From assembly GCF_030013595.1 (NCBI RefSeq), contig NZ_CP122768.1: DNA of 64,000 bases, one strand, 5' to 3'. Position 1 is the first letter of the stretch. Each line of letters opens with the position of its first letter. The stretch comes from Escherichia coli (GTDB taxonomy: Bacteria > Pseudomonadota > Gammaproteobacteria > Enterobacterales > Enterobacteriaceae). The translations under genes and the position numbers were made by a program. This document shows, piece by piece, positions 31,079-41,686 of the stretch. The notes under the pieces are model-generated. The model did no database searches, was not told where the DNA came from, and saw nothing but the letters and a program-made list of their open reading frames with translations.

Positions 31079-32128
31079 CTATTTATCTTTTTTTAGTATG
31101 GCCTTGAGGGCTGCGATATTGGCCCGTGCGCCTTCGGCTTCTTTTAAACGACGGCGCTGCTGGGCAAAGCGGTCAAACTCCAATTTCGCTTTGTCATCAG
31201 CGTCTTTCTTGGAGATTTTTCCTGCACCGTTTAATACATCTCTATCGTTAAAACTCAAGAACTGGTCAAGCTTATCGGCCCAGTCCTGTAAAAATACCTG
31301 CTTGCGACGCAGTGCTTGGTCTTCAGCAAAGTCGAGCCACATATTGACGATGCGATTAAGCTCTTTGATTTCGTCTTCACGCAAATAGTTCTTGGCAACA
31401 GTAACGTCTGTCTTGCGCACTTCATCGCCTTTATAGCTGGTTAAGCCCATATCCGGCTTACTGGCATCCACACGGCTGGCGATAAGCTCAGCAGCCGTCA
31501 TATGCGTACAAGCATAATGCAGCTTATTCTGAATGGTTTGGAAGAAGCGGTTGGTCTCTTGGTTAGATGGCTCGTAATCAGCAGCCATGGTAAAGATTTC
31601 TTTGACTCGCAGATAAACGCGACGCTCACTAGCTCGGATATCACGAATGCGTTCCAGCATTTCATCAAAGTAATCTGGCACAGCAGAATGGCCAATGGGC
31701 GGATTTTTCAGGCGCTCGTCATCCATGACGAATCCTTTGATTAGGTATTCTTGCAACATTCTGGTTGCCCATTGGCGGAACTGGGTGCCACGTGTTGAGC
31801 GAACTCGGTATCCTACTGCAAGAATAACCGGAAGACTGTAGTGACGAATGCTTCGCTTTACTTCTCTGCCACCTTCCAGTTGAACTTGTAAGTAATCCTT
31901 ACAAGTTGAAATTTGCTCAAGCTCTTCTTCAGAATAGACAGCTTTTACGTGTTGGGTGATTGCTTGAGAGCTAACTTGATAAAGCTCTGCCATTGCAGCC
32001 TGAGAAAGCCACAAGGTGTCAGACTCAAAACGACACTCAACGCGGGTTTGACCATCAGCACTGGTGAAAAGAACAAACTCACCTTGAGGAGCTTGTGGGA
32101 TGTTATCGGCCATTGAATCAACCTTCAT
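31079..32128 (-). CDS. rhuM: RhuM-family protein (349 aa)
   Basis: Characteristic RhuM N-terminus (FVLFTSADGQTRVECRFESDTLWLSQAAMAELYQVS); directly downstream of the hsd operon. Confidence 0.85.
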   Translation of the reverse strand: MKVDSMADNIPQAPQGEFVLFTSADGQTRVECRFESDTLWLSQAAMAELYQVSSQAITQHVKAVYSEEELEQISTCKDYLQVQLEGGREVKRSIRHYSLPVILAVGYRVRSTRGTQFRQWATRMLQEYLIKGFVMDDERLKNPPIGHSAVPDYFDEMLERIRDIRASERRVYLRVKEIFTMAADYEPSNQETNRFFQTIQNKLHYACTHMTAAELIASRVDASKPDMGLTSYKGDEVRKTDVTVAKNYLREDEIKELNRIVNMWLDFAEDQALRRKQVFLQDWADKLDQFLSFNDRDVLNGAGKISKKDADDKAKLEFDRFAQQRRRLKEAEGARANIAALKAILKKDK

Positions 32129-32148
32129 ATGTTACTGATAATGGGCTA

Positions 32149-32991
32149 TTATTTATCCATAGCGGTTACAGAGTTAGCGAGCCTTTTTTCTTTGCCAAAC
32201 GGGGTCGTATAGAAGCGTTGTTCAATGCCATAAAGCAGTAACTTCAACTCATCGTCATTAGATATTTCAAACTTCTGATTTTCTTTATCGAATTTCAGCT
32301 TCTGTTCACCGCAGTAACCGTCGATATAATCAAGCATGTTAGCTTTATCGTCAGCAGACATCGCATCAAGTGTTGCCATAGCAAGGCCAATACGTTTTCT
32401 ATTAGGTTTTGAGACGCTATCTACGTTGTAGTCATTACCCAACTCTATAAACTGTGCATCTAAAAACTGCTCAACTTCTTCTTTTGTTGCTTCCTTGTAC
32501 AACTCATCGATACCTTTAAAAATGCTCGAGATCGTTGCCAGATTTTTGAATATCAAGGTATCGGCCACTTTGAAGTACACTGCATCAGGTAAGGCGTTTA
32601 TTACTAAACGTGTTTGGCTCTTCTCAATTTCTGCGGCTTCACCAAAAACAAGCGTTTTGCGTTTTACGAATAGGCTTGGAGTGATTTTTTGAAAGTAAAA
32701 ATCATTACCTTGAATTGCAAATAAGTAGGCGATCTTGGCGAAGTTATCTTTGGTTAAGTCATCGTAGTCTTTTGAATCATAGTCTTTTTTTAGCAGTTCA
32801 ATACAAAACTCTTTTTGACTAAAGTCTTCAATTTTAAACCATGAGTCTTCGTCAAGGTTATGGTCTGGATTGTATGGAATACAGGCATTTAAGTCGATTG
32901 TGACGGTATCAAAAAGAGATTGATCAGAAACCAATTTGAAAATGCGTTTTTTTGCTCTAGTTTTTATATGTGCCAGTACATGGTCCATCAT
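32149..32991 (-). CDS. Soluble 280-aa protein translationally coupled to the upstream membrane protein (KwaB-like position; defence candidate)
   Basis: ORF track; start ATG overlaps the stop of the membrane gene (TAATG); no family recognised by eye. Confidence 0.5.
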   Translation of the reverse strand: MMDHVLAHIKTRAKKRIFKLVSDQSLFDTVTIDLNACIPYNPDHNLDEDSWFKIEDFSQKEFCIELLKKDYDSKDYDDLTKDNFAKIAYLFAIQGNDFYFQKITPSLFVKRKTLVFGEAAEIEKSQTRLVINALPDAVYFKVADTLIFKNLATISSIFKGIDELYKEATKEEVEQFLDAQFIELGNDYNVDSVSKPNRKRIGLAMATLDAMSADDKANMLDYIDGYCGEQKLKFDKENQKFEISNDDELKLLLYGIEQRFYTTPFGKEKRLANSVTAMDK

Positions 32992-33545
32992 TATCCTCGC
33001 TCGATAAATGTGTAATTATTGATTCGATAAGCCAATGATATTTCGATGTCATCTGGCTTCTTGTAGCGCTCTCGGCTAATAAGGAAAATGGCCGTTCCGT
33101 TTTTGGTTGTAATGTTATAAAACTCATAACCAAACAGTAAAAACAATGGGTTAAAGTAGAGTGCTTGCGATAAGAGAGTAAAAACAAACAAAACGCCATA
33201 AACAAACCACAATGTCTCCCAGTTACCAATGCTCAACGCCACGAAAAAGTAACCCAAATAACTTGGTAGGAAGCTGTTATTGGCATGCTCAATACTCGCT
33301 ACTTCACCCGCCTTAAAATCGTCTTTACCCAAATACTTACTCAGCCAAATACTCAATCCAGTCGATAAAACAGGGATAAGAAAATAGAGTAAATATGATA
33401 CTGCGTTCGGAAGTGCTGCTATCCAATCGAAGCAAGCGAAACCACCAAAGAAATATCCGAGTGAGTACCCTTTTTGTACCGCAAAGATAATCACTAGTAG
33501 TGATGTTGCATTGAACGTAAGTAAAACCCGAAACGCAGTATTCAT
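32991..33545 (-). CDS. Small 4-TM membrane protein translationally coupled to hsdR (KwaA-like architecture; defence candidate)
   Basis: About four hydrophobic helices (aa 7-25, 29-46, 49-70, 93-125); start ATG overlaps the hsdR stop. Confidence 0.55.
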   Translation of the reverse strand: MNTAFRVLLTFNATSLLVIIFAVQKGYSLGYFFGGFACFDWIAALPNAVSYLLYFLIPVLSTGLSIWLSKYLGKDDFKAGEVASIEHANNSFLPSYLGYFFVALSIGNWETLWFVYGVLFVFTLLSQALYFNPLFLLFGYEFYNITTKNGTAIFLISRERYKKPDDIEISLAYRINNYTFIERG

Positions 33546-36500
33546 TATTTCACCGCCGCCTGTTCTGCACCTTGCTTCATCATGTCAAAAATCAACTCAA
33601 CATAACTTGCCATAACTTGTGGGTCTTTGAGTAGCGTTCGGGCTATATCACCTTCTTTCAGCAGAGCCTGCACAACGGCTTGCTTCACCGCTTGCGGCAA
33701 GTCGCCTTTGAGGGCAATCGACTTGTCGTGCTTTTCTATCTGCTCAACCACAATTGGATTTTGGGTGACACGCGTAATAGTACCGTTGGCAAAGTTTCGG
33801 CGACCGGGTTCGTCGCCGACATCGCCAAACAGTTCGTTTAGGCGGCGAATGATATCGGCAAGAAATGCCTGTTCACGATCCGCAGGGTCGTTATAGTTGG
33901 GGCGGATAGGTTCAAGTACCTGATTAAACGCTTCTGGAAGCGGCTCTTTGTCGTATTTGATTTTGAATTTTTCTAGTACCAGTGCACTGAGATCGATGTT
34001 TTCTGGTGTTACCCCTTTCAATCGACGTGATAGCAAATGAGCAAACGCGGCAAAGTTTTCCAGTTCAGGATCACCAAACTCAATCAATTGCGCCATATAG
34101 CTATAGTGCTTCACAAATCGAGCTAAATCTGACTTAAAACGCATTAGTGCTTCGCGCTGCTTGGTGAAATCACTGCGCTGAGATTCTGCGTAGTTCGCCG
34201 CTTTTTCATCACCCGCAAGGTGCGCTTTGTTGTATTGCTGATCCCAATGGTTTGCAGCATCAACCAGCTCTTTGAGCTTAACGTTGAACACATCGGTAGG
34301 GCGTTGTGTGGCAGCTAGCAGTTTCTTGTGCGCGTGTGACTTTTTGTCAGGTGATTGGCCGAGAATCGATTTACCACGCGCTTGCTTAAACAACTCTAAA
34401 TCTTGATGGTTGTATATGTTCTGTTCATCCAAAATATCTTTGATGTCATAGATGACGTTCACATCTTGCACTTCATTAAGCTGCGCGCCTTTGTCGTACT
34501 TTTTGAACGCATTGAGAATGGTTTGTGGATCGTTAACAAAATCAATCACGAAGGTTGTGTCTTTGCCTGGATAGGTGCGGTTTAGGCGAGACAGCGTTTG
34601 CACCGCTTCTACATCGGATATTTTCTTATCCAAATACATGGCAACCAGTTTTGGTTGATTAAAGCCCGTTTGGAACTTGTTGGCGACTAACATGACGCGA
34701 TATTCGGTATTCTCAAACTCATGGCGCAGGTCAGCCCCGTGCGTGTCTGGGTTTAAGTTGTACTCGGTGTACTCTTTATCGAAATCAATTTCTAGCGGGT
34801 CTTGGCTGTCTTCATCACCCAAATCTTTGCCGGGGACTTTGCCCGAGAAGGCAACCAAGGCTTGGATACCTTCAATACCATGCTTTTTAATGTATTTATC
34901 AAAAGCAAGCTTGTATTTCACCGCCTGTGGCCTGCCCGATGTGACCACCATGGCTTTGGCTTCACCTTCCAGTAGGTGAGCGATATTGGCCTTGAAGTGC
35001 TTAATAATAAATTCGACTTTTTGGCTGACCGTGGTTGGGTGCAGTGACATCCAGCGCGCCAACGCGCGGCGAGCTTGTTTGCTGTCTACGCGCTTCTCAT
35101 CCAGATTGTTCTCACCAATTTTGTAGGCTGTATCGTAGTGGGTGTAATTCTCCAGCACATCAAGAATAAAACCCTCATCAATGGCCTGACGTTGGGTGTA
35201 GAGGTGGAACGATTCAGGAAGATTGTCATCTGACACTGGTTGGTTAGGGTCTTTCGGGCGGCCAAACAACATCTTGGTGCTGTGCTTGGGTGTTGCCGTA
35301 AAAGCAAAGTGCGAAACGTTCTTGGGCATGGCGCGCGCTTCTTGCACCTTAGTAAGAATGTCCTCAATGCTCATTTGCTCCAACTCTTGAGGGCTAAGGT
35401 TTAGAGTAAGCGCTGCGCGTAACCCTTTGGCTGTAGAGCCTGTTTGCGAGGTGTGTGCTTCATCGATGATCACCGCAAAGTTACTTTGTGCCAAAGATTG
35501 ATTGGTCAGAATCGCTTCTAACGCATATGGGAAGGTTTGAATCGTCACTACAATGATCGGCGTGCCAGTCAATAGCGCTTCAGTCAGCTGTTTTGATTTC
35601 GACTCGCTGCTCTTTTCGCGATCAATCGCCTTAATCACCCCATATTGATGATCCAGCTGTTGCACCGCATCTTGCAACTGCGAATCCAGCACGGTGCGGT
35701 CGGTCACAATGATCACTGATTTAAAGACCGCTTTACCATCGGTGCTGCGTAAACGAATCAAATCATGGGCCGTCCAGGCTATGGTAGAGGTTTTTCCCGA
35801 ACCGGCGCTGTGCTCACAAAGATACTGCATGCCTGCGCCGTTCTGGCGGGCATCATCAATCATCTTGTTGACTGCGGCTAACTGATGATAACGCGGAAAA
35901 ATCTGTGTTTCCTTACGCTCAACCTTGCCATTGCTATCGGCAACCACTTTGGTTTCGACATACACAAAGCTGTAGAAAATGCGTAGCCAATTATCTTTTT
36001 GGGCAATTTCTTGCCAAAAATAGCTGACCGGATACTCTCCATCTTCACCCGGCAAGTTGATGTGTACAGGCAAATCAGAGGTAGAACCATCATGGCCTTT
36101 ATTGAAGGGCAGAAAATAGGTATTTTCTCCCGCCAGTTTGGTCGCCATGGCGATTTCTGTATCAGACATGGCAAAATGTACCACTGCACCGCGTTTAAAG
36201 GTTAACAGCGGCTCTTTACGCTTGGTTTTTGGGTCAACGGGCAGACGATCCTCTTTGTACTGCGCAATCGCCGATTCTAGCGACTGGGTAAAATCGGTTT
36301 TTAGCTCGGCGGTGGCAACGGGTAGACCGTTGATAAAGAACACCAAGTCAATTTCCCACTCGCGAGTCGGGCAATATTTCAGTTGGCGCACCACGCGCAA
36401 AATGTTGTGCTCATAACGGGCTATACGCTCTTCATTGCGCGCATCTTCGGGTTTGCGTTGGCCCATGGCAATCGTGCCGCAACCTGCAATGGTAAAGCCT

Positions 36501-36781
36501 TTACGCAGCACATTAATGGTGCCACCTGTTTTACTGCCAGCTTTGTGGGAAGAGAGGGCTTTTTCCAAACGCTCCAACAGCACCTGCTCGGCATTCACAC
36601 CATGCAGTTTATTCAGTTTGTGCCAGGCATCTGGCTGGGTGGCCTTTACCCAATCCATGACATCTTGCGGGTAAAGGGCGCGTTGCTGGTCATAGTGGCA
36701 GGAATGGCCTTCTTTCCAGCCATTGTTCACCAACTGCTCGGTAATATATTGTTCAAAATGCACTTCATGATGTGCAGCCAT
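33545..36781 (-). CDS. hsdR: Type I restriction enzyme R subunit HsdR (1078 aa)
   Basis: SF2 helicase motifs (GSGKT Walker A, DEAH-like region); length and operon context. Confidence 0.95.
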   Translation of the reverse strand: MAAHHEVHFEQYITEQLVNNGWKEGHSCHYDQQRALYPQDVMDWVKATQPDAWHKLNKLHGVNAEQVLLERLEKALSSHKAGSKTGGTINVLRKGFTIAGCGTIAMGQRKPEDARNEERIARYEHNILRVVRQLKYCPTREWEIDLVFFINGLPVATAELKTDFTQSLESAIAQYKEDRLPVDPKTKRKEPLLTFKRGAVVHFAMSDTEIAMATKLAGENTYFLPFNKGHDGSTSDLPVHINLPGEDGEYPVSYFWQEIAQKDNWLRIFYSFVYVETKVVADSNGKVERKETQIFPRYHQLAAVNKMIDDARQNGAGMQYLCEHSAGSGKTSTIAWTAHDLIRLRSTDGKAVFKSVIIVTDRTVLDSQLQDAVQQLDHQYGVIKAIDREKSSESKSKQLTEALLTGTPIIVVTIQTFPYALEAILTNQSLAQSNFAVIIDEAHTSQTGSTAKGLRAALTLNLSPQELEQMSIEDILTKVQEARAMPKNVSHFAFTATPKHSTKMLFGRPKDPNQPVSDDNLPESFHLYTQRQAIDEGFILDVLENYTHYDTAYKIGENNLDEKRVDSKQARRALARWMSLHPTTVSQKVEFIIKHFKANIAHLLEGEAKAMVVTSGRPQAVKYKLAFDKYIKKHGIEGIQALVAFSGKVPGKDLGDEDSQDPLEIDFDKEYTEYNLNPDTHGADLRHEFENTEYRVMLVANKFQTGFNQPKLVAMYLDKKISDVEAVQTLSRLNRTYPGKDTTFVIDFVNDPQTILNAFKKYDKGAQLNEVQDVNVIYDIKDILDEQNIYNHQDLELFKQARGKSILGQSPDKKSHAHKKLLAATQRPTDVFNVKLKELVDAANHWDQQYNKAHLAGDEKAANYAESQRSDFTKQREALMRFKSDLARFVKHYSYMAQLIEFGDPELENFAAFAHLLSRRLKGVTPENIDLSALVLEKFKIKYDKEPLPEAFNQVLEPIRPNYNDPADREQAFLADIIRRLNELFGDVGDEPGRRNFANGTITRVTQNPIVVEQIEKHDKSIALKGDLPQAVKQAVVQALLKEGDIARTLLKDPQVMASYVELIFDMMKQGAEQAAVK

Positions 36782-38067
36782 TACACCGCCTCCCTGACGT
36801 CTATTTTTCCTGTGACAGCCGCGTTGATCAGCGATGTGCGGTGTTCTTTTAGAAGATCAATCGATTTATCAGTCTCTTGAATCAGTAAATCAATGTTTAT
36901 CGTTGCTGCACTCAAGTAATTCGTTATTGTCTTTTGCTCATCAATTGGTGGGATAGCAATACTTGTATTAGCTAGTGAAGGAATGCTCAGGTTGTAGTTA
37001 CCTACCGATGTTCTTGACTGAAATGTTAATGCTTGACGAACAGATAGTGAGTTCATCGCTTCCACTAAGAAGCTAGTATCCACTCCTTGCTTTGGTGTTA
37101 ACTTTATTAGGTACGACGCAAATAAATACTGCCCATTTGAATCAAAAAGCGCGCTTTGGCCGACCAGATTAGGGTTACCGTTAGTTCTGATGACTAAAAT
37201 GTCGCCTCTTGATAAAAGATAAGTTAAAGCATCAACATCACTGATATTTGCATATTTGAGATCTTCAAAATCAACATTGGTACTCTTGATGTTTGGTATC
37301 CTGAGAACAGGATAGCCAACATCAGACTGGTTACAGTCTTGAGAGGTTCCATACATAAAGTTGGAGCAAATATGCTTTATCTTTTTGACTTCCCAATGCT
37401 TCGGCACTTGCCCAATCCACTCGATGCCAGAGTCCTGCATCTCCACATTGGGATAGAGCCCCTTTGTGACCACATGGCTGATCAGTGCTTGGCGTTTTTC
37501 TTTGAGCAGCTTAATAAAGGTCTGCTTTTCCTCGATCAGACTGTCGATGCGCTGGGTTTCGCGATCAAGGAATGTGCTAACCTGCTTCTGTAATGAAATA
37601 TCAATCAGTGGAACAGGTATTTCTAAAAGATCACCAGCTGTTAGGTTCTGACGAACTCCTCCACCCAGTTTGTTATAAATATTGGTTAGGTATAGAGCAA
37701 AAAAGTACCAGTAATAGAACCTTGGGTAGATGCTATTTGAACTCGCTGAAACACGGATGTATGCAGGGCTCATTATTCCTCGTTCATGCACAATCCCCAC
37801 TCGGCTAGTCTTTATATTTTCAAGATCTATGAGCTTAAAAACTAAGTCATCTTTTTCAAAAATCTGATAAACAGAGTAATCAGAAGATTGAAGTCCTTGT
37901 AAATCGTCTAACGAGCGGTTTATGACACCTTTCATTGTTAGTGCAAGACGATTAGATTCTTTCATTCCTTGATTGATTTCTTTGCTACTCGTAAATAAAC
38001 GTTTAGCTGGTACTGAGTTCCATTTCGAGTCAGATACGAAAGCATCTACTATGTTGCCAGCATTCAT
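36781..38067 (-). CDS. hsdS: Type I restriction-modification specificity subunit HsdS (428 aa)
   Basis: Two-TRD architecture with conserved central and C-terminal repeats; coupled between hsdM and hsdR. Confidence 0.9.
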   Translation of the reverse strand: MNAGNIVDAFVSDSKWNSVPAKRLFTSSKEINQGMKESNRLALTMKGVINRSLDDLQGLQSSDYSVYQIFEKDDLVFKLIDLENIKTSRVGIVHERGIMSPAYIRVSASSNSIYPRFYYWYFFALYLTNIYNKLGGGVRQNLTAGDLLEIPVPLIDISLQKQVSTFLDRETQRIDSLIEEKQTFIKLLKEKRQALISHVVTKGLYPNVEMQDSGIEWIGQVPKHWEVKKIKHICSNFMYGTSQDCNQSDVGYPVLRIPNIKSTNVDFEDLKYANISDVDALTYLLSRGDILVIRTNGNPNLVGQSALFDSNGQYLFASYLIKLTPKQGVDTSFLVEAMNSLSVRQALTFQSRTSVGNYNLSIPSLANTSIAIPPIDEQKTITNYLSAATINIDLLIQETDKSIDLLKEHRTSLINAAVTGKIDVREAV

Positions 38068-40046
38068 TACGCCACCTCATTCAGCAGAGCCTGAATGCGC
38101 GCTTCACATGCTTTTAGCTCACGATCAATCACACTCAACTCGCGTGGTGGCACGTATTGGTAGAAATAGCGGTTAAAGTTAATTTCATAACCGACAATGC
38201 CCACTTCGCCGTCTTTTTCATCACGCACTGAGTGATCAATAAAGGCATCCGGTACATGTGGCAGCACCTCTTGTGCGAAGTAATCTTCAACGTCGCGGTC
38301 AAAAGGAATGCTTTCGGTGTCTTTGAGTTTAGGGTCGGCGATCACTTGGCCTTTTTCATCCAGTGCAGGCTCAAATTGCGGATCAATTTTTACAAAGTGC
38401 GCAGTTAAGGCCGTAGCCAGTGCTTTTGAGCACTTACCAAAGTCACCCTTATTGTTATTCTTCTTAACCGCCAAACGTGCCCATTCATAAGGCTGAAGGC
38501 CAAGGTTATCGGTGAGGTATTGTACCCATGCCGCTTGTTGCTCTGGTTTGAGTTTTTTAAACGTATCTTGCTGCACAAATGCAGCAATGCCCGCAGCGGT
38601 AATATCTAGTTTGGCACGCAGTGGACGCTGAATGGTGACTTTACGGTAGGCAAAATCAGTAGTCTGGAAGATCTTACAGTTGTCACTGGCTTCAAAGCCA
38701 TCGTACGCACGGACAATATCGTCAATCTGTTCATCACTCAGGTACTTGCGCTTATCGCCTTGCGATTTACGCATGGGAGTCCAAATATCTGCCAAGTTAA
38801 TCAGTTGCACCTGATTCTTGCGTCTTGGCTCTTTATGGTTAGTCAAAATCCAGATGTAGGTGCCAATGCCGGTGTTGAAGAACATATCGGTTGGCAGGGC
38901 AACAATCGCTTCGACTAAGTCTTGTTCTAGCAGCCAACGGCGGATTTCTGATGGGCCTGAGCCTGCATCGCCATTAAACAGTGGCGAGCCAGAAAGGACT
39001 ATACCCACTCGGCCACCACCATTTTCCGGCGTTTCCATTTTTGATACCAAGTGCAGTAAAAACAGCATTGAACCATCAGAAATACTCGGCAGGCCTGGCC
39101 CAAAGCGTCCGGCGTATTTGAGCTGTTTGTGCTCACGTTCTACTTCTTTCTTGGCTTTTTCCCACTTAATGCCAAATGGCGGGTTGGCAAGGCCGTAGTG
39201 AAACTTGTCGGCACGTAACTGATCGTCTGATAAGGTGTTGCCTTGCTTGATGTTATTGGCATCAAAACCGCGGATCATCATATTGGTCAGCGCCATGGCA
39301 TGGGTCGCGGGGTCGAGCTCTTGACCAAAAGGCACGACTTTAGCGCTGCTGCCCATTTCTTCAATTTGGCTAATGGCATCGGAAAGGAAACCGCCCGTGC
39401 CACAGGTTGGGTCATAGATGGTGCGGATCACACCCTTTTCACTAAAGATATCTTCATCCGCCGCCAGCACCAGTTTGGTGGCAAGACGCACGGCATCACG
39501 CGGGGTCATAAATTCCCCGGCCTTTTCATTAACCGAACTGGCGAACTTTAGAATCAGCTCTTCATAAGCATCTGATAATACGCGGTCAGACACTACATCA
39601 GGATGCAAGTCGAGGTTGGCAAAATGGTTTACCATGCGATACAGCAACTTGGCTTTTTCCAGATCTTCTATGGTTTGACCAAATTTAAACTCATCAAAGA
39701 TGGTACGAACGTTTTTGCTGAACTGGCTGATGTAGTGTTCTAGGTTGTCGCCGGTGTCTGACGCGCCTAAGGTTTCTAGGCTATATTCACTGGTGTTGTA
39801 AAAGGCGAATCCCGCAATTTCTGGCAACACTAAACCAAGGTCTATGCCGGATTGTTTTTCGGCCAGATAGAACTTACGAACTTCCTCACGGGTGGGTTCT
39901 AACACGCATTCAATACGACGCAGTAGCAAAAATGGCAGGATAATCCGCGCAAAATCGGTGTGTTTGAAATCACCCCATAAATCATCTGCCATACGCCAAA
40001 TAGCACTGGAGAGTTTGGCGCTTTGTTCTTTGTCTTGTAAGTTCAT
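38067..40046 (-). CDS. hsdM: Type I restriction-modification N6-adenine DNA methyltransferase HsdM (659 aa, long C-terminal extension)
   Basis: NPPFG catalytic motif (LANPPFGIKW), HsdM N-terminal domain; first gene of the coupled operon. Confidence 0.95.
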   Translation of the reverse strand: MNLQDKEQSAKLSSAIWRMADDLWGDFKHTDFARIILPFLLLRRIECVLEPTREEVRKFYLAEKQSGIDLGLVLPEIAGFAFYNTSEYSLETLGASDTGDNLEHYISQFSKNVRTIFDEFKFGQTIEDLEKAKLLYRMVNHFANLDLHPDVVSDRVLSDAYEELILKFASSVNEKAGEFMTPRDAVRLATKLVLAADEDIFSEKGVIRTIYDPTCGTGGFLSDAISQIEEMGSSAKVVPFGQELDPATHAMALTNMMIRGFDANNIKQGNTLSDDQLRADKFHYGLANPPFGIKWEKAKKEVEREHKQLKYAGRFGPGLPSISDGSMLFLLHLVSKMETPENGGGRVGIVLSGSPLFNGDAGSGPSEIRRWLLEQDLVEAIVALPTDMFFNTGIGTYIWILTNHKEPRRKNQVQLINLADIWTPMRKSQGDKRKYLSDEQIDDIVRAYDGFEASDNCKIFQTTDFAYRKVTIQRPLRAKLDITAAGIAAFVQQDTFKKLKPEQQAAWVQYLTDNLGLQPYEWARLAVKKNNNKGDFGKCSKALATALTAHFVKIDPQFEPALDEKGQVIADPKLKDTESIPFDRDVEDYFAQEVLPHVPDAFIDHSVRDEKDGEVGIVGYEINFNRYFYQYVPPRELSVIDRELKACEARIQALLNEVA

Positions 40047-40112
40047 TGATACTACCTAAATGAAGTTAAATCGTTAAAAAATCAGTGTATTGTTTGGTTA
40101 TTATTTTGCGTT

Positions 40113-40619
40113 CTAGCTAAAGATGGCTTGCCAACGGCAAAATGCAGAACGATGTCTGTCGGTCCATTGGGTGCAAATAACATAGGTTTTTTCATCTCGC
40201 TGGGCCACTTTAGTGGTGGAGTAGCGGTTTCGCTCTTTGGCATCTTTGGCTGCACTGCGAATGTCTTCTGGCCGTGATGATTTAGCCAGTTTGAGCACGG
40301 GGAATGACAACCCAAAAATGTTGCGACAATAGGTTAGCTGCGTGAGGTTTTCTATTTCACTCAGTGGTAGAGCATGTTCAACCAAGTCTTGGATAGCTTC
40401 GGTTATCTCTGCATTGCTGATATTGTGTTGCGTTTGTGCAACTTCCCGTGTCTCTACTTCATTTTCAAGAGCAACAGAAAACGGAAAACCTTTGGCTTGA
40501 ACGGATTTAGCTAAAAAGACGTTAATAGCCTGCTCAATAGGTAAGCCCAACTCAGCAAAGATACTCGTGGCTTTTTCAAGCAGTTGAGGGTCTATATTGG
40601 TTGCCTTCATATGACTCAC
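40113..40619 (-). CDS. RelB/DinJ-like antitoxin-fold domain fused to an unknown C-terminal domain (168 aa)
   Basis: N-terminus LLEKATSIFAELGLPIEQAINVFLAKSV resembles DinJ/RelB; no adjacent toxin ORF; sits just upstream of hsdM. Confidence 0.5.
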   Translation of the reverse strand: MSHMKATNIDPQLLEKATSIFAELGLPIEQAINVFLAKSVQAKGFPFSVALENEVETREVAQTQHNISNAEITEAIQDLVEHALPLSEIENLTQLTYCRNIFGLSFPVLKLAKSSRPEDIRSAAKDAKERNRYSTTKVAQRDEKTYVICTQWTDRHRSAFCRWQAIFS

Positions 40620-40882
40620 AAAACCTACAAATTGTAATTTTTGTATCCTATAGGCTTTGCATTTTCACGGCTAGCAATAAAGTCAAAAAATGAGAAATAA
40701 TTGATCTTAAAAAACTTAAAACAGGCTAACAAATCAGCAGTTACACTTGTCATGCCCTGCTAGTGAGAGGATCTTATCACTTTCGATATTGATGCAATCA
40801 GGTGCCGCGATAGAGGAAGCTTGGTCAGGTAATGGTGCCAACTTACTGATTTAGTGTATGATGGTGATTTTAAGGTGCTTGC

Positions 40883-41158
40883 GTGGCTTCTGTTTCTATC
40901 AGCTGTCCCTCCTGTTCAGCTACTGACGGGGTGGTGCGTAACGGCAAAAGCACCGCCGGACATCAGCGCTATCTCTGCTCTCACTGCCGTAAAACATGGC
41001 AACTGCAGTTCACTTACACCGCTTCTCAACCCGGTACGCACCAGAAAATCATTGATATGGCCATGAATGGCGTTGGATGCCGGGCAACCGCCCGCATTAT
41101 GGGCGTTGGCCTCAACACGATTTTCCGCCATTTAAAAAACTCAGGCCGCAGTCGGTAA
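40883..41158 (+). CDS. insA: IS1 InsA
   Basis: [40 protein letters not shown]. Confidence 0.95.
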
Positions 41159-41580
41159 CCTCGCGCATACAGCCGGGCAGTGACGTCATCGTCTGCGCGG
41201 AAATGGACGAACAGTGGGGATACGTCGGGGCTAAATCGCGCCAGCGCTGGCTGTTTTACGCGTATGACAGGCTCCGGAAGACGGTTGTTGCGCACGTATT
41301 CGGTGAACGCACTATGGCGACGCTGGGGCGTCTTATGAGCCTGCTGTCACCCTTTGACGTGGTGATATGGATGACGGATGGCTGGCCGCTGTATGAATCA
41401 CGCCTGAAGGGAAAGCTGCACGTTATCAGCAAGCGTTACACTCAGCGAATTGAGCGGCATAACCTGAATCTGAGGCAGCACCTGGCACGGCTGGGACGGA
41501 AGTCGCTGTCGTTCTCAAAATCGGTGGAGCTGCATGACAAAGTCATCGGGCATTATCTGAACATAAAACACTATCAATAA
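41077..41580 (+). CDS. insB: IS1 InsB (expressed as InsAB' by frameshift)
   Basis: ORF track; IS1 transposase sequence. Confidence 0.85.
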
Positions 41581-41686
41581 GTTGGAGTCATTACCCCCCG
41601 GACGAGTGGGAATCCATGGTAGGGATTTTTACCGAAATGGAAGAACACTATTAGGGGGCACCTCAGAAAACGGAAAATAAAGCACG

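What the first reader, a model, noticed from the sequence alone, without database searches (positions are those of the whole stretch)
40113..40619. Antitoxin-fold fusion protein at the head of the hsd operon with no toxin partner
The N-terminus resembles RelB/DinJ antitoxins, followed by about 110 aa of unknown function (ends KTYVICTQWTDRHRSAFCRW). No toxin-like ORF is adjacent. It lies 67 bp upstream of hsdM on the same strand, so it may act as a controller of the R-M operon rather than as a TA component.
Basis: inference. Interest (0 to 1): 0.5.

Follow-up and report, generated by a model that had tools for sequence, protein, structure and literature searches.

The report
Antitoxin-like regulator heading phage-defence operons
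This small gene looks like a toxin-antitoxin remnant, but it is most likely a self-regulating DNA-binding switch that, with its conserved binding site, sits in front of many different anti-phage defence operons and carries an undescribed second domain.

Summary
A conserved gene lies on the minus strand at 40113-40610 (165 aa from the ATG; the ORF reaches a GTG at 40619). It ends 66 nt upstream of hsdM, and no toxin gene is nearby. Residues ~4-50 are a RelB/DinJ-type ribbon-helix-helix. After a variable linker, residues ~66-168 form a confidently predicted globular domain (pLDDT 96.5). That domain has no Pfam, NCBIfam, PADLOC or PDB match.

The gene is not specific to hsd. In Vibrio, Photobacterium, Shewanella, Aeromonas and Lonsdalea, homologues are the first gene of at least five kinds of defence operon. 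HsdM relatives at ~54% identity exist without it.

A 29-bp palindromic operator-like site (TACAA-N4-TACAA-N1-TTGTA-N4-TTGTG, 40617-40645) directly follows a conserved -10 box. A relaxed form of this motif sits 33-49 nt before the start codon in 18 of 20 homologous loci. It occurs nowhere else in 450 kb, and once in the window.

Best reading: an autoregulated repressor of the operon hsdMSR-Kiwa-PDC-S05. It is analogous to RptR, BrxR/CapW and C proteins but not homologous to them.

The C-terminal domain also occurs fused to HNH, McrB, KAP and TIR proteins. It is probably a sensor or nucleic-acid reader. No function has been tested experimentally.

The parts
40113..40610 (-). Leader gene: two-domain RHH-X protein (165 aa from ATG 40610; the ORF extends to GTG 40619; stop codon 40113-40115)
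   Evidence: ORF; RefSeq start and product name; 61 homologous clusters; alignment
40470..40610 (-). N-terminal RelB/DinJ-type ribbon-helix-helix domain (residues ~4-50 in the 168-aa numbering)
   Evidence: Pfam RelB E 4.6e-5; NCBIfam TIGR02384 E 1.7e-10, below cut-off; PDB DinJ E 1e-4; Foldseek 4ml0 prob 0.91
40425..40469 (-). Variable, low-confidence linker (residues ~51-65)
   Evidence: pLDDT <50 for residues 51-63; column conservation 0.35 against ~0.7 in both domains
40116..40424 (-). C-terminal 'X' domain (residues ~66-168): a1-a2-a3-b1-a4-b2-b3-a5; conserved motifs FG(L/I)xFPVLK, NRYST, CTQWTDRHR
40617..40645 (-). Putative operator: TACAA(40645-41)-AAAT-TACAA(40636-32)-T-TTGTA(40630-26)-GGTT-TTGTG(40621-17)
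   Evidence: Sequence; the core palindrome TACAANTTGTA occurs once in 64 kb, expected 0.03; a relaxed form of the motif is present at -33..-49 in 18 of 20 homologous loci and nowhere else in 251 kb + 199 kb
40645..40650 (-). Putative -10 hexamer TAGGAT (TAnnAT in all 11 aligned homologous loci, several with an extended-10 TGn)
   Evidence: Invariant T and A columns in alignment A5; sequences. The generic promoter scan did not call it, so this is an inference
40047..40112 (-). 66-nt gap between the leader gene and hsdM, without terminator or stable structure
   Evidence: Terminator scan; RNA fold -2.9 kcal/mol, z +1.6
38067..40046 (-). hsdM (Type I methyltransferase)
   Evidence: PADLOC MTase_I E 1.9e-243
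36781..38067 (-). hsdS (specificity subunit); its start overlaps the hsdM stop
   Evidence: PADLOC Specificity_I E 4e-97
33545..36781 (-). hsdR (restriction subunit); its start overlaps the hsdS stop
   Evidence: PADLOC REase_I E 8.6e-30; RefSeq annotation
32149..33545 (-). Kiwa-like pair: KwaA (32991-33545) and KwaB (32149-32991), joined to hsdR by overlapping stop and start codons
   Evidence: PADLOC KwaA E 9e-16, KwaB E 7e-14
31079..32128 (-). PDC-S05 / RhuM-family gene, last co-directional gene of the array
   Evidence: PADLOC PDC-S05 E 8e-167; RefSeq 'virulence RhuM family protein'
40828..40850 (+). Terminal inverted repeat of an IS1 copy; it limits the native upstream region to ~208 bp
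   Evidence: IS1 transposase annotated

Best explanation
The gene encodes an autoregulatory transcription factor, not an antitoxin. Inferred mechanism: the N-terminal ribbon-helix-helix dimerises. Two dimers occupy the four TACAA/TTGTA half-sites that start at the last base of the -10 box and cover the transcription start and 5' leader. This represses a promoter that drives the regulator itself and, by read-through, hsdM-hsdS-hsdR-kwaA-kwaB-PDC-S05. Negative feedback keeps a potentially toxic defence array at a low, steady level, and allows a burst of expression when the cassette enters a naive cell. The conserved C-terminal domain is proposed to be the input module: a sensor or nucleic-acid reader that changes operator occupancy in response to an infection-related cue. 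Shown here: domain composition, operon position, conservation of the site, portability across defence systems, absence of a toxin. Inferred: DNA binding to that site, repression, co-transcription, and any signal sensing.
For: (1) The RHH DNA-binding fold is shared with DinJ and RelB, antitoxins known to bind their own operators (the DinJ/RelB operator binding is established knowledge, not tested here). (2) Homologues occupy the first position of co-directional operons. They often overlap or nearly abut the next gene: stop/start overlap in L001-L004 and L013, 3-15 nt gaps in L009 and L011. In the window the 66-nt gap has no terminator. (3) The operator-like palindrome and adjacent TAnnAT box persist across proteins only 45-55% identical, while the surrounding intergenic DNA is unrelated. 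A regular expression for the motif hits 18 of 20 family loci at -33 to -49 from the start codon. It hits nowhere else in 251 kb of those loci, never in 199 kb of control loci, and once in the window. (4) The downstream cargo is always known or candidate defence: Type I R-M + Kiwa + PDC-S05; Type I R-M + GmrSD; HKD/Snf2 + DUF4391 + methylase + Res; HEC-03B/NsnB-like ATPase + RNA ligase; PDC-S06 + Septu. (5) The C-domain is 93% identical between proteins that head unrelated cargo, which argues against a cargo-specific partner. (6) A precedent exists: RptR, an unrelated small repressor encoded first in Type I R-M islands, represses their promoter, and hsdMSR or darTG2 could not be cloned directly downstream of that promoter without it (PMC12255303).
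Against: There is no experiment: binding, repression and co-transcription are all inferred. The generic sigma-70 scan did not call a promoter here, and no good -35 is evident. The residues of the short N-terminal beta-strand vary (KATN, KDSK, ELN, KAQ, LTQ) while the half-site stays TACAA, so which domain reads the operator is uncertain. The role of the C-terminal domain is unknown. In the wider X-domain superfamily the neighbourhoods of small DBD-X proteins are mixed and not all recognisably defence. In the window an IS1 lies 208 bp upstream and could supply or disturb transcription.
Confidence: 0.65

Rival explanations
1. The protein takes part directly in defence as a DNA reader or sensor subunit rather than mainly as a regulator. 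The C-terminal domain would recognise foreign or modified DNA, or methylation state, in a SeqA-like layout of RHH oligomerisation domain plus C-terminal DNA binder. It would mark or recruit targets for whichever system follows.
Confidence: 0.13
2. It is a genuine antitoxin-type neutraliser. The C-terminal domain would bind and inhibit a toxic product of the downstream operon, or an unlinked toxin, in the manner of promiscuous antitoxin domains such as Panacea. The RHH would provide conditional autoregulation.
For: The N-terminal modules paired with X (RelB/DinJ, Phd/YefM, CopG-like RHH) are typical antitoxin DNA-binding domains. The gene is tightly coupled to the following gene.
Against: No toxin-sized gene is adjacent in the window or in 20 homologous loci. 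A C-domain 93% identical precedes unrelated cargo. There is no PADLOC or TA-family match for the C-domain. The downstream proteins of three other X-domain loci are unrelated to each other.
Confidence: 0.1
3. It is a host-protecting restriction-alleviation or anti-restriction factor that dampens the activity of the neighbouring systems after transcription, during establishment in a new host.
For: Promoter-proximal position in horizontally transferred cassettes carried by a Tn3-family element, a Tn7-like element, a P4-like satellite and a selC island.
Against: No similarity to ArdA, ArdB/KlcA, Ocr or other known families. One protein would have to inhibit mechanistically unrelated systems. The operator conservation is left unexplained.
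Confidence: 0.05
4. It is a decaying orphan antitoxin gene with no current function.
For: RefSeq names it a RelB/DinJ antitoxin, and no partner toxin is present.
Against: The full-length two-domain protein is conserved in several genera, with 29 invariant positions. Both domains are conserved and only the linker is free to vary. The upstream site is conserved as well.
Confidence: 0.03

Closest known systems
RptR (RMS-proximal transcriptional regulator; EPEC RRDM island, PDB 9R2Z; PMC12255303)
   Same: A small protein encoded as the first gene of a Type I R-M-containing defence island. RptR represses the island promoter by binding short repeats, and both the regulator and its site are conserved in Gammaproteobacteria.
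   Different: RptR is a single-domain dimer of four-helix monomers that binds TAGCTA. Neither the protein nor the family profile matched any RptR chain in the PDB sequence searches, assuming 9R2Z is in that PDB copy. No TAGCTA occurs in the 208-bp upstream region (read). The protein here has an RHH plus an extra ~100-aa domain and heads non-R-M systems as well.
BrxR / CapW (wHTH-WYL-WCX regulators of BREX, CBASS and other defence islands; PMC9122601, PMC9122588)
   Same: One-component layout (DNA-binding domain plus putative sensor domain). Encoded at the head of many different defence systems. The sensor-type domain is also found fused to effectors.
   Different: Different folds in both domains; no WYL or HTH hit. 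In V. parahaemolyticus a BrxR-headed Wadjet operon lies immediately upstream of an operon headed by this family, so the two families are separate regulators that can sit side by side.
RelB/DinJ type II antitoxins
   Same: Homologous N-terminal RHH domain. Operator binding at the own promoter is expected.
   Different: No cognate RelE/YafQ toxin gene. The extended toxin-wrapping C-terminus is replaced by a globular domain. The score is below the NCBIfam family cut-off (41 vs 45.65 bits).
Controller (C) proteins of Type II R-M systems
   Same: A dedicated small regulator inside an R-M operon with palindromic operators overlapping the promoter.
   Different: C proteins are Xre-type HTH proteins, usually upstream of the restriction gene, and act as activator/repressor switches. 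The protein here has an RHH, sits upstream of the methylase gene of a Type I system, and is not restricted to R-M systems.
SeqA

Membership tests
Type II TA antitoxin, RelB/DinJ family | N-terminal ribbon-helix-helix domain with sequence similarity to RelB/DinJ | tested here: met
   Pfam RelB E 4.6e-5; PDB DinJ E 1e-4 with the family profile; Foldseek 4ml0 prob 0.91. NCBIfam TIGR02384 gives 41 bits, below its curated cut-off of 45.65.
Type II TA antitoxin, RelB/DinJ family | Adjacent co-transcribed cognate toxin gene (RelE/YafQ/ParE superfamily) | tested here: not met
   No such ORF in the window, in the RefSeq annotation or in 20 homologous loci.
Type II TA antitoxin, RelB/DinJ family | Short, extended C-terminal segment that wraps and neutralises the toxin | tested here: not met
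   The C-terminus is a compact ~100-aa a/b domain (pLDDT 96.5) that no searched library annotates as an antitoxin family; AFDB homologues labelled antitoxin owe the name to their N-terminal domains.
Type II TA antitoxin, RelB/DinJ family | Binds a palindromic operator in its own promoter | not testable with these tools
   A conserved four-half-site palindrome next to the -10 box is consistent with this, but binding was not measured.
RptR family | Sequence or fold homology to the RptR four-helix dimer (PDB 9R2Z) | tested here: not met
   No RptR chain appears among the PDB sequence hits or the fold hits; this assumes 9R2Z is in the PDB copy.
RptR family | TAGCTA repeats in the island promoter | tested here: not met
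   No TAGCTA in 40620-40827, read; the conserved motif is TACAA/TTGTA.
BrxR/CapW family | wHTH plus WYL domain | tested here: not met
   No HTH or WYL Pfam hit on the protein or on 70 diverse C-domain segments.
R-M controller (C) proteins | Xre-type HTH fold and a C-box upstream of the restriction gene | tested here: not met
   The domain is an RHH, not an HTH; the gene precedes hsdM.
SeqA-like | C-terminal domain homologous to the SeqA DNA-binding domain (PF03925) | tested here: not met
Defence-operon leader regulators (functional class) | First gene of co-directional defence operons of more than one type, with a conserved cis site | tested here: met
   Five cargo types; conserved site.
Defence-operon leader regulators (functional class) | Demonstrated transcriptional control of the downstream genes | not testable with these tools
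   This needs reporter assays, EMSA and RNA assays.

The most novel reading that the evidence does not exclude
The C-terminal 'X' domain is a previously undescribed invader-sensing module, possibly a reader of foreign or modified nucleic acid. Bacteria would use it in two ways. Fused to small DNA-binding domains (RelB-type RHH, Phd/YefM, CopG/SeqA-N-like RHH, Xis-type HTH), it would de-repress defence operons on infection. Fused to HNH, PD-(D/E)xK-like, McrB, KAP and TIR effectors, it would target or trigger them. That would make it a functional counterpart of the WYL domain.
Probability: 0.3. Interest if true: 0.8.

Novelty: new variant of a known kind. Interest (0 to 1): 0.6.

Why it matters
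How defence islands are kept quiet and then switched on is a current open question, and only a few regulator families are known (C proteins, BrxR/CapW, CapH/CapP, RptR). This locus adds a candidate family with a precisely defined, easily testable 29-bp operator. The operator travels with the regulator in front of at least five unrelated defence systems. Public genome annotation currently labels the regulator as an antitoxin. The C-terminal domain has no name, no solved structure and no Pfam model, yet it occurs in about 400 representative clusters (50% identity) and is fused to classic defence effectors. Working out what it binds could reveal a new infection signal. The practical points are re-annotation, a marker for finding new defence cargo downstream of the gene, and a portable promoter/operator/repressor cassette.

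Tried and rejected

(2) Pfam SeqA and DUF1413 hits among multi-domain X proteins. They lie outside the X domain: the domain segments alone give no such hit, and the SeqA-like stretches sit N-terminal to X.

(3) PDB Foldseek with the full-length model matched only DinJ for the N-terminus. The AFDB50 search of the C-domain returned only uncharacterised proteins.

(4) A toxin partner or a conserved partner protein. None is adjacent. The ~390-400-aa genes downstream of three other X-domain proteins are unrelated to each other.

(5) An RNA element. There is no credible Rfam match. The 61-nt region around the operator folds with z -3.0, but the left arm lies upstream of the putative -10 box, so it is more likely a DNA palindrome than an RNA structure.

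(6) Phage origin. No match in phage genomes or in IMG/VR contigs.

(7) Plasmid origin of the window. There are no near matches; the window is an E. coli chromosomal island.

(8) Strict coupling to this hsdM subtype. Rejected.

(9) The species-representative genome scan gave only six full-length relatives. The other 20 loci were ordinary RelB antitoxins that matched only the N-terminus.

Full report
1. What is in the sequence

The finding's coordinates delimit a minus-strand ORF, 40113..40619, of 168 aa from a GTG. RefSeq annotates the identical gene in E. coli from the ATG at 40610 (165 aa, WP_000648433.1, 'type II toxin-antitoxin system RelB/DinJ family antitoxin'). Homologues start at the equivalent Met, and the GTG lies inside the putative operator. 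I therefore take 40113-40610 as the gene.

Several genes follow on the same strand. hsdM is at 38067-40046, after a 66-nt gap. hsdS (36781-38067) and hsdR (33545-36781) come next. They are joined through overlapping stop and start codons to a Kiwa-like pair, KwaA (32991-33545) and KwaB (32149-32991), and then to a PDC-S05/RhuM-family gene at 31079-32128. The gap to hsdM has no terminator-like site and no stable RNA structure (-2.9 kcal/mol, z +1.6).

An IS1 end lies at 40828, 208 bp upstream of the gene. A Tn21-like mer/tni region lies beyond it. The window matches an E. coli chromosomal island: leader and hsdM occur together in 76 of 5,426 complete genomes. In strain Eco889 the island lies next to tRNA-Sec. 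It is not on plasmids.

2. The protein has two domains and is not a canonical antitoxin

Residues ~4-50 resemble RelB/DinJ:
- Pfam RelB, E 4.6e-5.
- NCBIfam TIGR02384, E 1.7e-10 but 41 bits, below its curated cut-off of 45.65.
- PDB DinJ, E 0.009 with the single sequence and 1e-4 with the family profile.
- Foldseek 4ml0, probability 0.91.

A ~15-residue linker follows. It is variable (column conservation 0.35) and of low confidence (pLDDT <50).

Residues ~66-168 are as conserved as the RHH (0.70 against 0.68). Invariant motifs include NRYST and C-x-QW-x-x-RH. With a 70-sequence alignment the domain is predicted very confidently: pLDDT 96.5, pTM 0.87, topology a1-a2-a3-b1-a4-b2-b3-a5.

No RelE/YafQ/ParE-like gene is adjacent here or in any homologous locus. 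Two of the defining features of a RelB/DinJ antitoxin are therefore not met: a partner toxin and a toxin-wrapping tail.

3. Homologues head many different defence operons

Sixty-one protein clusters of ~160-170 aa were found, in Vibrio, Photobacterium, Shewanella, Pectobacterium, Dickeya, Aeromonas and Lonsdalea. In every locus examined the gene is the first gene of a co-directional array, often overlapping or nearly abutting the next gene. The cargo varies:
- Type I R-M (window, L014, L016, L019).
- Type I R-M with two GmrSD genes, in a Tn7-like element (L005).
- An HKD/Snf2 helicase + DUF4391 + N6/N4 methylase (+ AAA_21/DUF4276) + Res-type helicase-nuclease array (L001-L004, L009-L013, L017, L018, and the L044 plasmid next to a Tn3-family transposase).
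- A HEC-03B/NsnB-like ATPase + RNA ligase (L006).
- PDC-S06 followed by a PtuA-type Septu ATPase (L015).

The L015 protein is 85% identical to the window protein overall and 93% identical in the C-terminal domain, yet its cargo is unrelated. Conversely, HsdM relatives at ~54% identity occur on 816 plasmids. Only one plasmid carries this family's RHH-X gene (a second hit is an HNH-X protein), and there it heads the Snf2 array. Two inspected hsdMSR operons have no such gene upstream. The gene is therefore a portable head module, not a component of one hsd subtype.

It was not found in phage genomes or viral contigs. Only six full-length copies turned up in one-genome-per-species bacterial genomes.

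4. A conserved cis element travels with the gene

In 11 aligned upstream regions, from proteins as divergent as 45-55% identity, the intergenic DNA is unrelated except for one block just before the start codon.

In the window, read on the minus strand, that block is TAGGAT (40650-40645) overlapping TACAA(40645-41)-AAAT-TACAA(40636-32)-T-TTGTA(40630-26)-GGTT-TTGTG(40621-17). More distant members show the same four-half-site symmetry:
- L005: TACAA-ATC-AACAA-AT-TTGTA-TTT-TTGTA.
- L011: TACAA-CACT-TACTA-T-TTGTA-AAT-TTGTA.

The hexamer fits TAnnAT, with its first two and last positions invariant. Several loci have an extended-10 TGn.

The core palindrome TACAANTTGTA occurs once in the 64-kb window, against 0.03 expected. 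A relaxed regular expression hits 18 of 20 family loci at -33 to -49 from the start codon. It hits nowhere else in 251 kb of those loci, apart from the opposite-strand reading of the same site, and never in 199 kb of unrelated loci.

A palindrome of four 5-bp half-sites with ~9-bp spacing, immediately downstream of a -10 box, is the classic layout for a dimer-of-dimers RHH repressor (established knowledge of Arc, MetJ, CopG and DinJ). That this protein binds it is an inference.

5. The C-terminal domain elsewhere

A profile of the domain finds 404 representative clusters (50% identity level) at E<=1e-3. The commonest architecture is again ~160-195 aa with the domain at the C-terminus. The N-terminal module varies:
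- Phd/YefM-like, the most frequent.
- A CopG/SeqA-N-like RHH.
- An Xis/MerR-type HTH_17.
- RelB-like.

Other architectures fuse the domain to HNH nucleases, including an unannotated 237-aa ORF on IncC plasmid pKAZ2. Fusions also occur to a predicted PD-(D/E)xK-like module and to the N-terminus of a McrB-type AAA_5 protein, in two copies. Further partners are KAP NTPases, TIR, DUF3427, DUF6946, HSDR_N_2 and SMC/AAA_15. One example lies in a Priestia plasmid R-M island between Sau3AI-family, dcm and SNF2 genes.

In characterised Type IV restriction enzymes and McrB homologues, these fusion positions are occupied by DNA-reader domains (established knowledge). The domain is therefore most plausibly a nucleic-acid-binding or other invader-sensing module.

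The neighbourhoods of the few non-RelB DBD-X proteins I could retrieve are short and mixed: some look defence-like and some do not. Their downstream partners are unrelated to each other. Their upstream palindromes differ from TACAA/TTGTA, which fits operator specificity residing in the N-terminal module.

6. Most likely mechanism and its rivals

Best reading (confidence ~0.65): an autoregulated repressor. Its RHH occupies the operator over the transcription start, and its promoter drives the regulator and, by read-through, hsdMSR-Kiwa-PDC-S05. The X domain would act as the input module.

This parallels RptR, a non-homologous helical repressor encoded first in Type I R-M islands. RptR binds TAGCTA repeats. 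Without it, hsdMSR or darTG2 could not be cloned directly downstream of the island promoter. hsdM rises more than 15-fold on infection by an unknown trigger (PMC12255303). It also parallels BrxR/CapW (listing).

The rivals are:
- A direct DNA-reader or sensor subunit (0.13).
- A true neutralising antitoxin (0.10).
- A restriction-alleviation factor (0.05).
- A decaying orphan (0.03).

The near-identical C-domain in front of unrelated cargo, the absence of any toxin, and the conserved operator weigh against the last three. The first cannot be excluded and could coexist with regulation.

7. Caveats

8. Verdict

This is a new variant of a known kind, the defence-island leader regulator. It is built from an antitoxin-type RHH and an undescribed domain, and it has a sharply defined, testable operator. 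Interest 0.6.

Noticed in passing
window 31079-33545 (minus strand): Kiwa-like kwaA/kwaB and a PDC-S05/RhuM-family gene are appended to hsdR. Stop and start codons overlap at 33545 and 32991. Three defence systems therefore appear to share one transcription unit headed by the RHH-X gene.
   Followed up: partly
window 40828-41600 and 62609-62631; 41687-49000: An IS1 copy sits 208 bp upstream of the leader gene, and a second IS1 end lies at 62609. Between them are a Tn21-like mer operon (merR, T, P, C, A, D, E), tniA/tniB and IS21-type genes, possibly forming an IS1-bounded composite. The GC content jumps from ~0.43 to ~0.60 at 41000.
   Followed up: no
L045 7770-8483 (IncC plasmid pKAZ2, KR827391.1): An unannotated 237-aa ORF encodes an HNH nuclease fused to the same C-terminal X domain (28.5% identity to the window protein over 94% of it).
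   Followed up: partly
proteins P0103, P0142, P0160, P0094; P0199, P0167, P0166: Some X-domain proteins have an N-terminus that by eye resembles the SeqA N-terminal RHH (IRISENLYTRL...NVIERLL against IEVDDELYSYI...DILRRML). Others carry a SeqA-C-like stretch (GK/RxRxYF) N-terminal to X: phmmer E 0.015-0.14, and Pfam SeqA hits in 2-4 members. The link between X and SeqA-type modules is unexplained.
   Followed up: partly
L002-L004 1371-7879 and 8001 onwards (V. parahaemolyticus): A divergently encoded BrxR-type WYL regulator and the adjacent Wadjet (MksB/E/F + JetD) operon lie immediately upstream of the RHH-X-headed Snf2/DUF4391/methylase array. In L001 the same slot holds DUF4747 genes instead. 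This looks like a hotspot with exchangeable regulator-plus-cargo cassettes.
   Followed up: no
L040 (E. coli Eco889, NZ_CP015159.1 516203-545133): The island lies next to tRNA-Sec and an integrase gene. It also carries tia, a phosphoethanolamine transferase gene and a mobI(A/C) gene downstream of the defence array, which hints at an IncC- or SGI1-related origin.
   Followed up: no
window 40600-40660 (minus strand): A longer imperfect inverted repeat (GCAAAGCCTATAG ... TTGTAGGTTTTGT) brackets the -10 box and the operator. As RNA it folds at -13.8 kcal/mol (z -3.0). L001 shows a comparable outer repeat. Whether it extends the protein-binding site or is incidental is unclear.
   Followed up: partly
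L011/L012 571-6882; L005 1-1300; L044 4900-8752: The leader-plus-cargo unit sits in different mobile contexts: a P4-like satellite (integrase, AlpA, primase), a Tn7-like element (TnsA/TnsB) and next to a Tn3-family transposase and resolvase.
   Followed up: no
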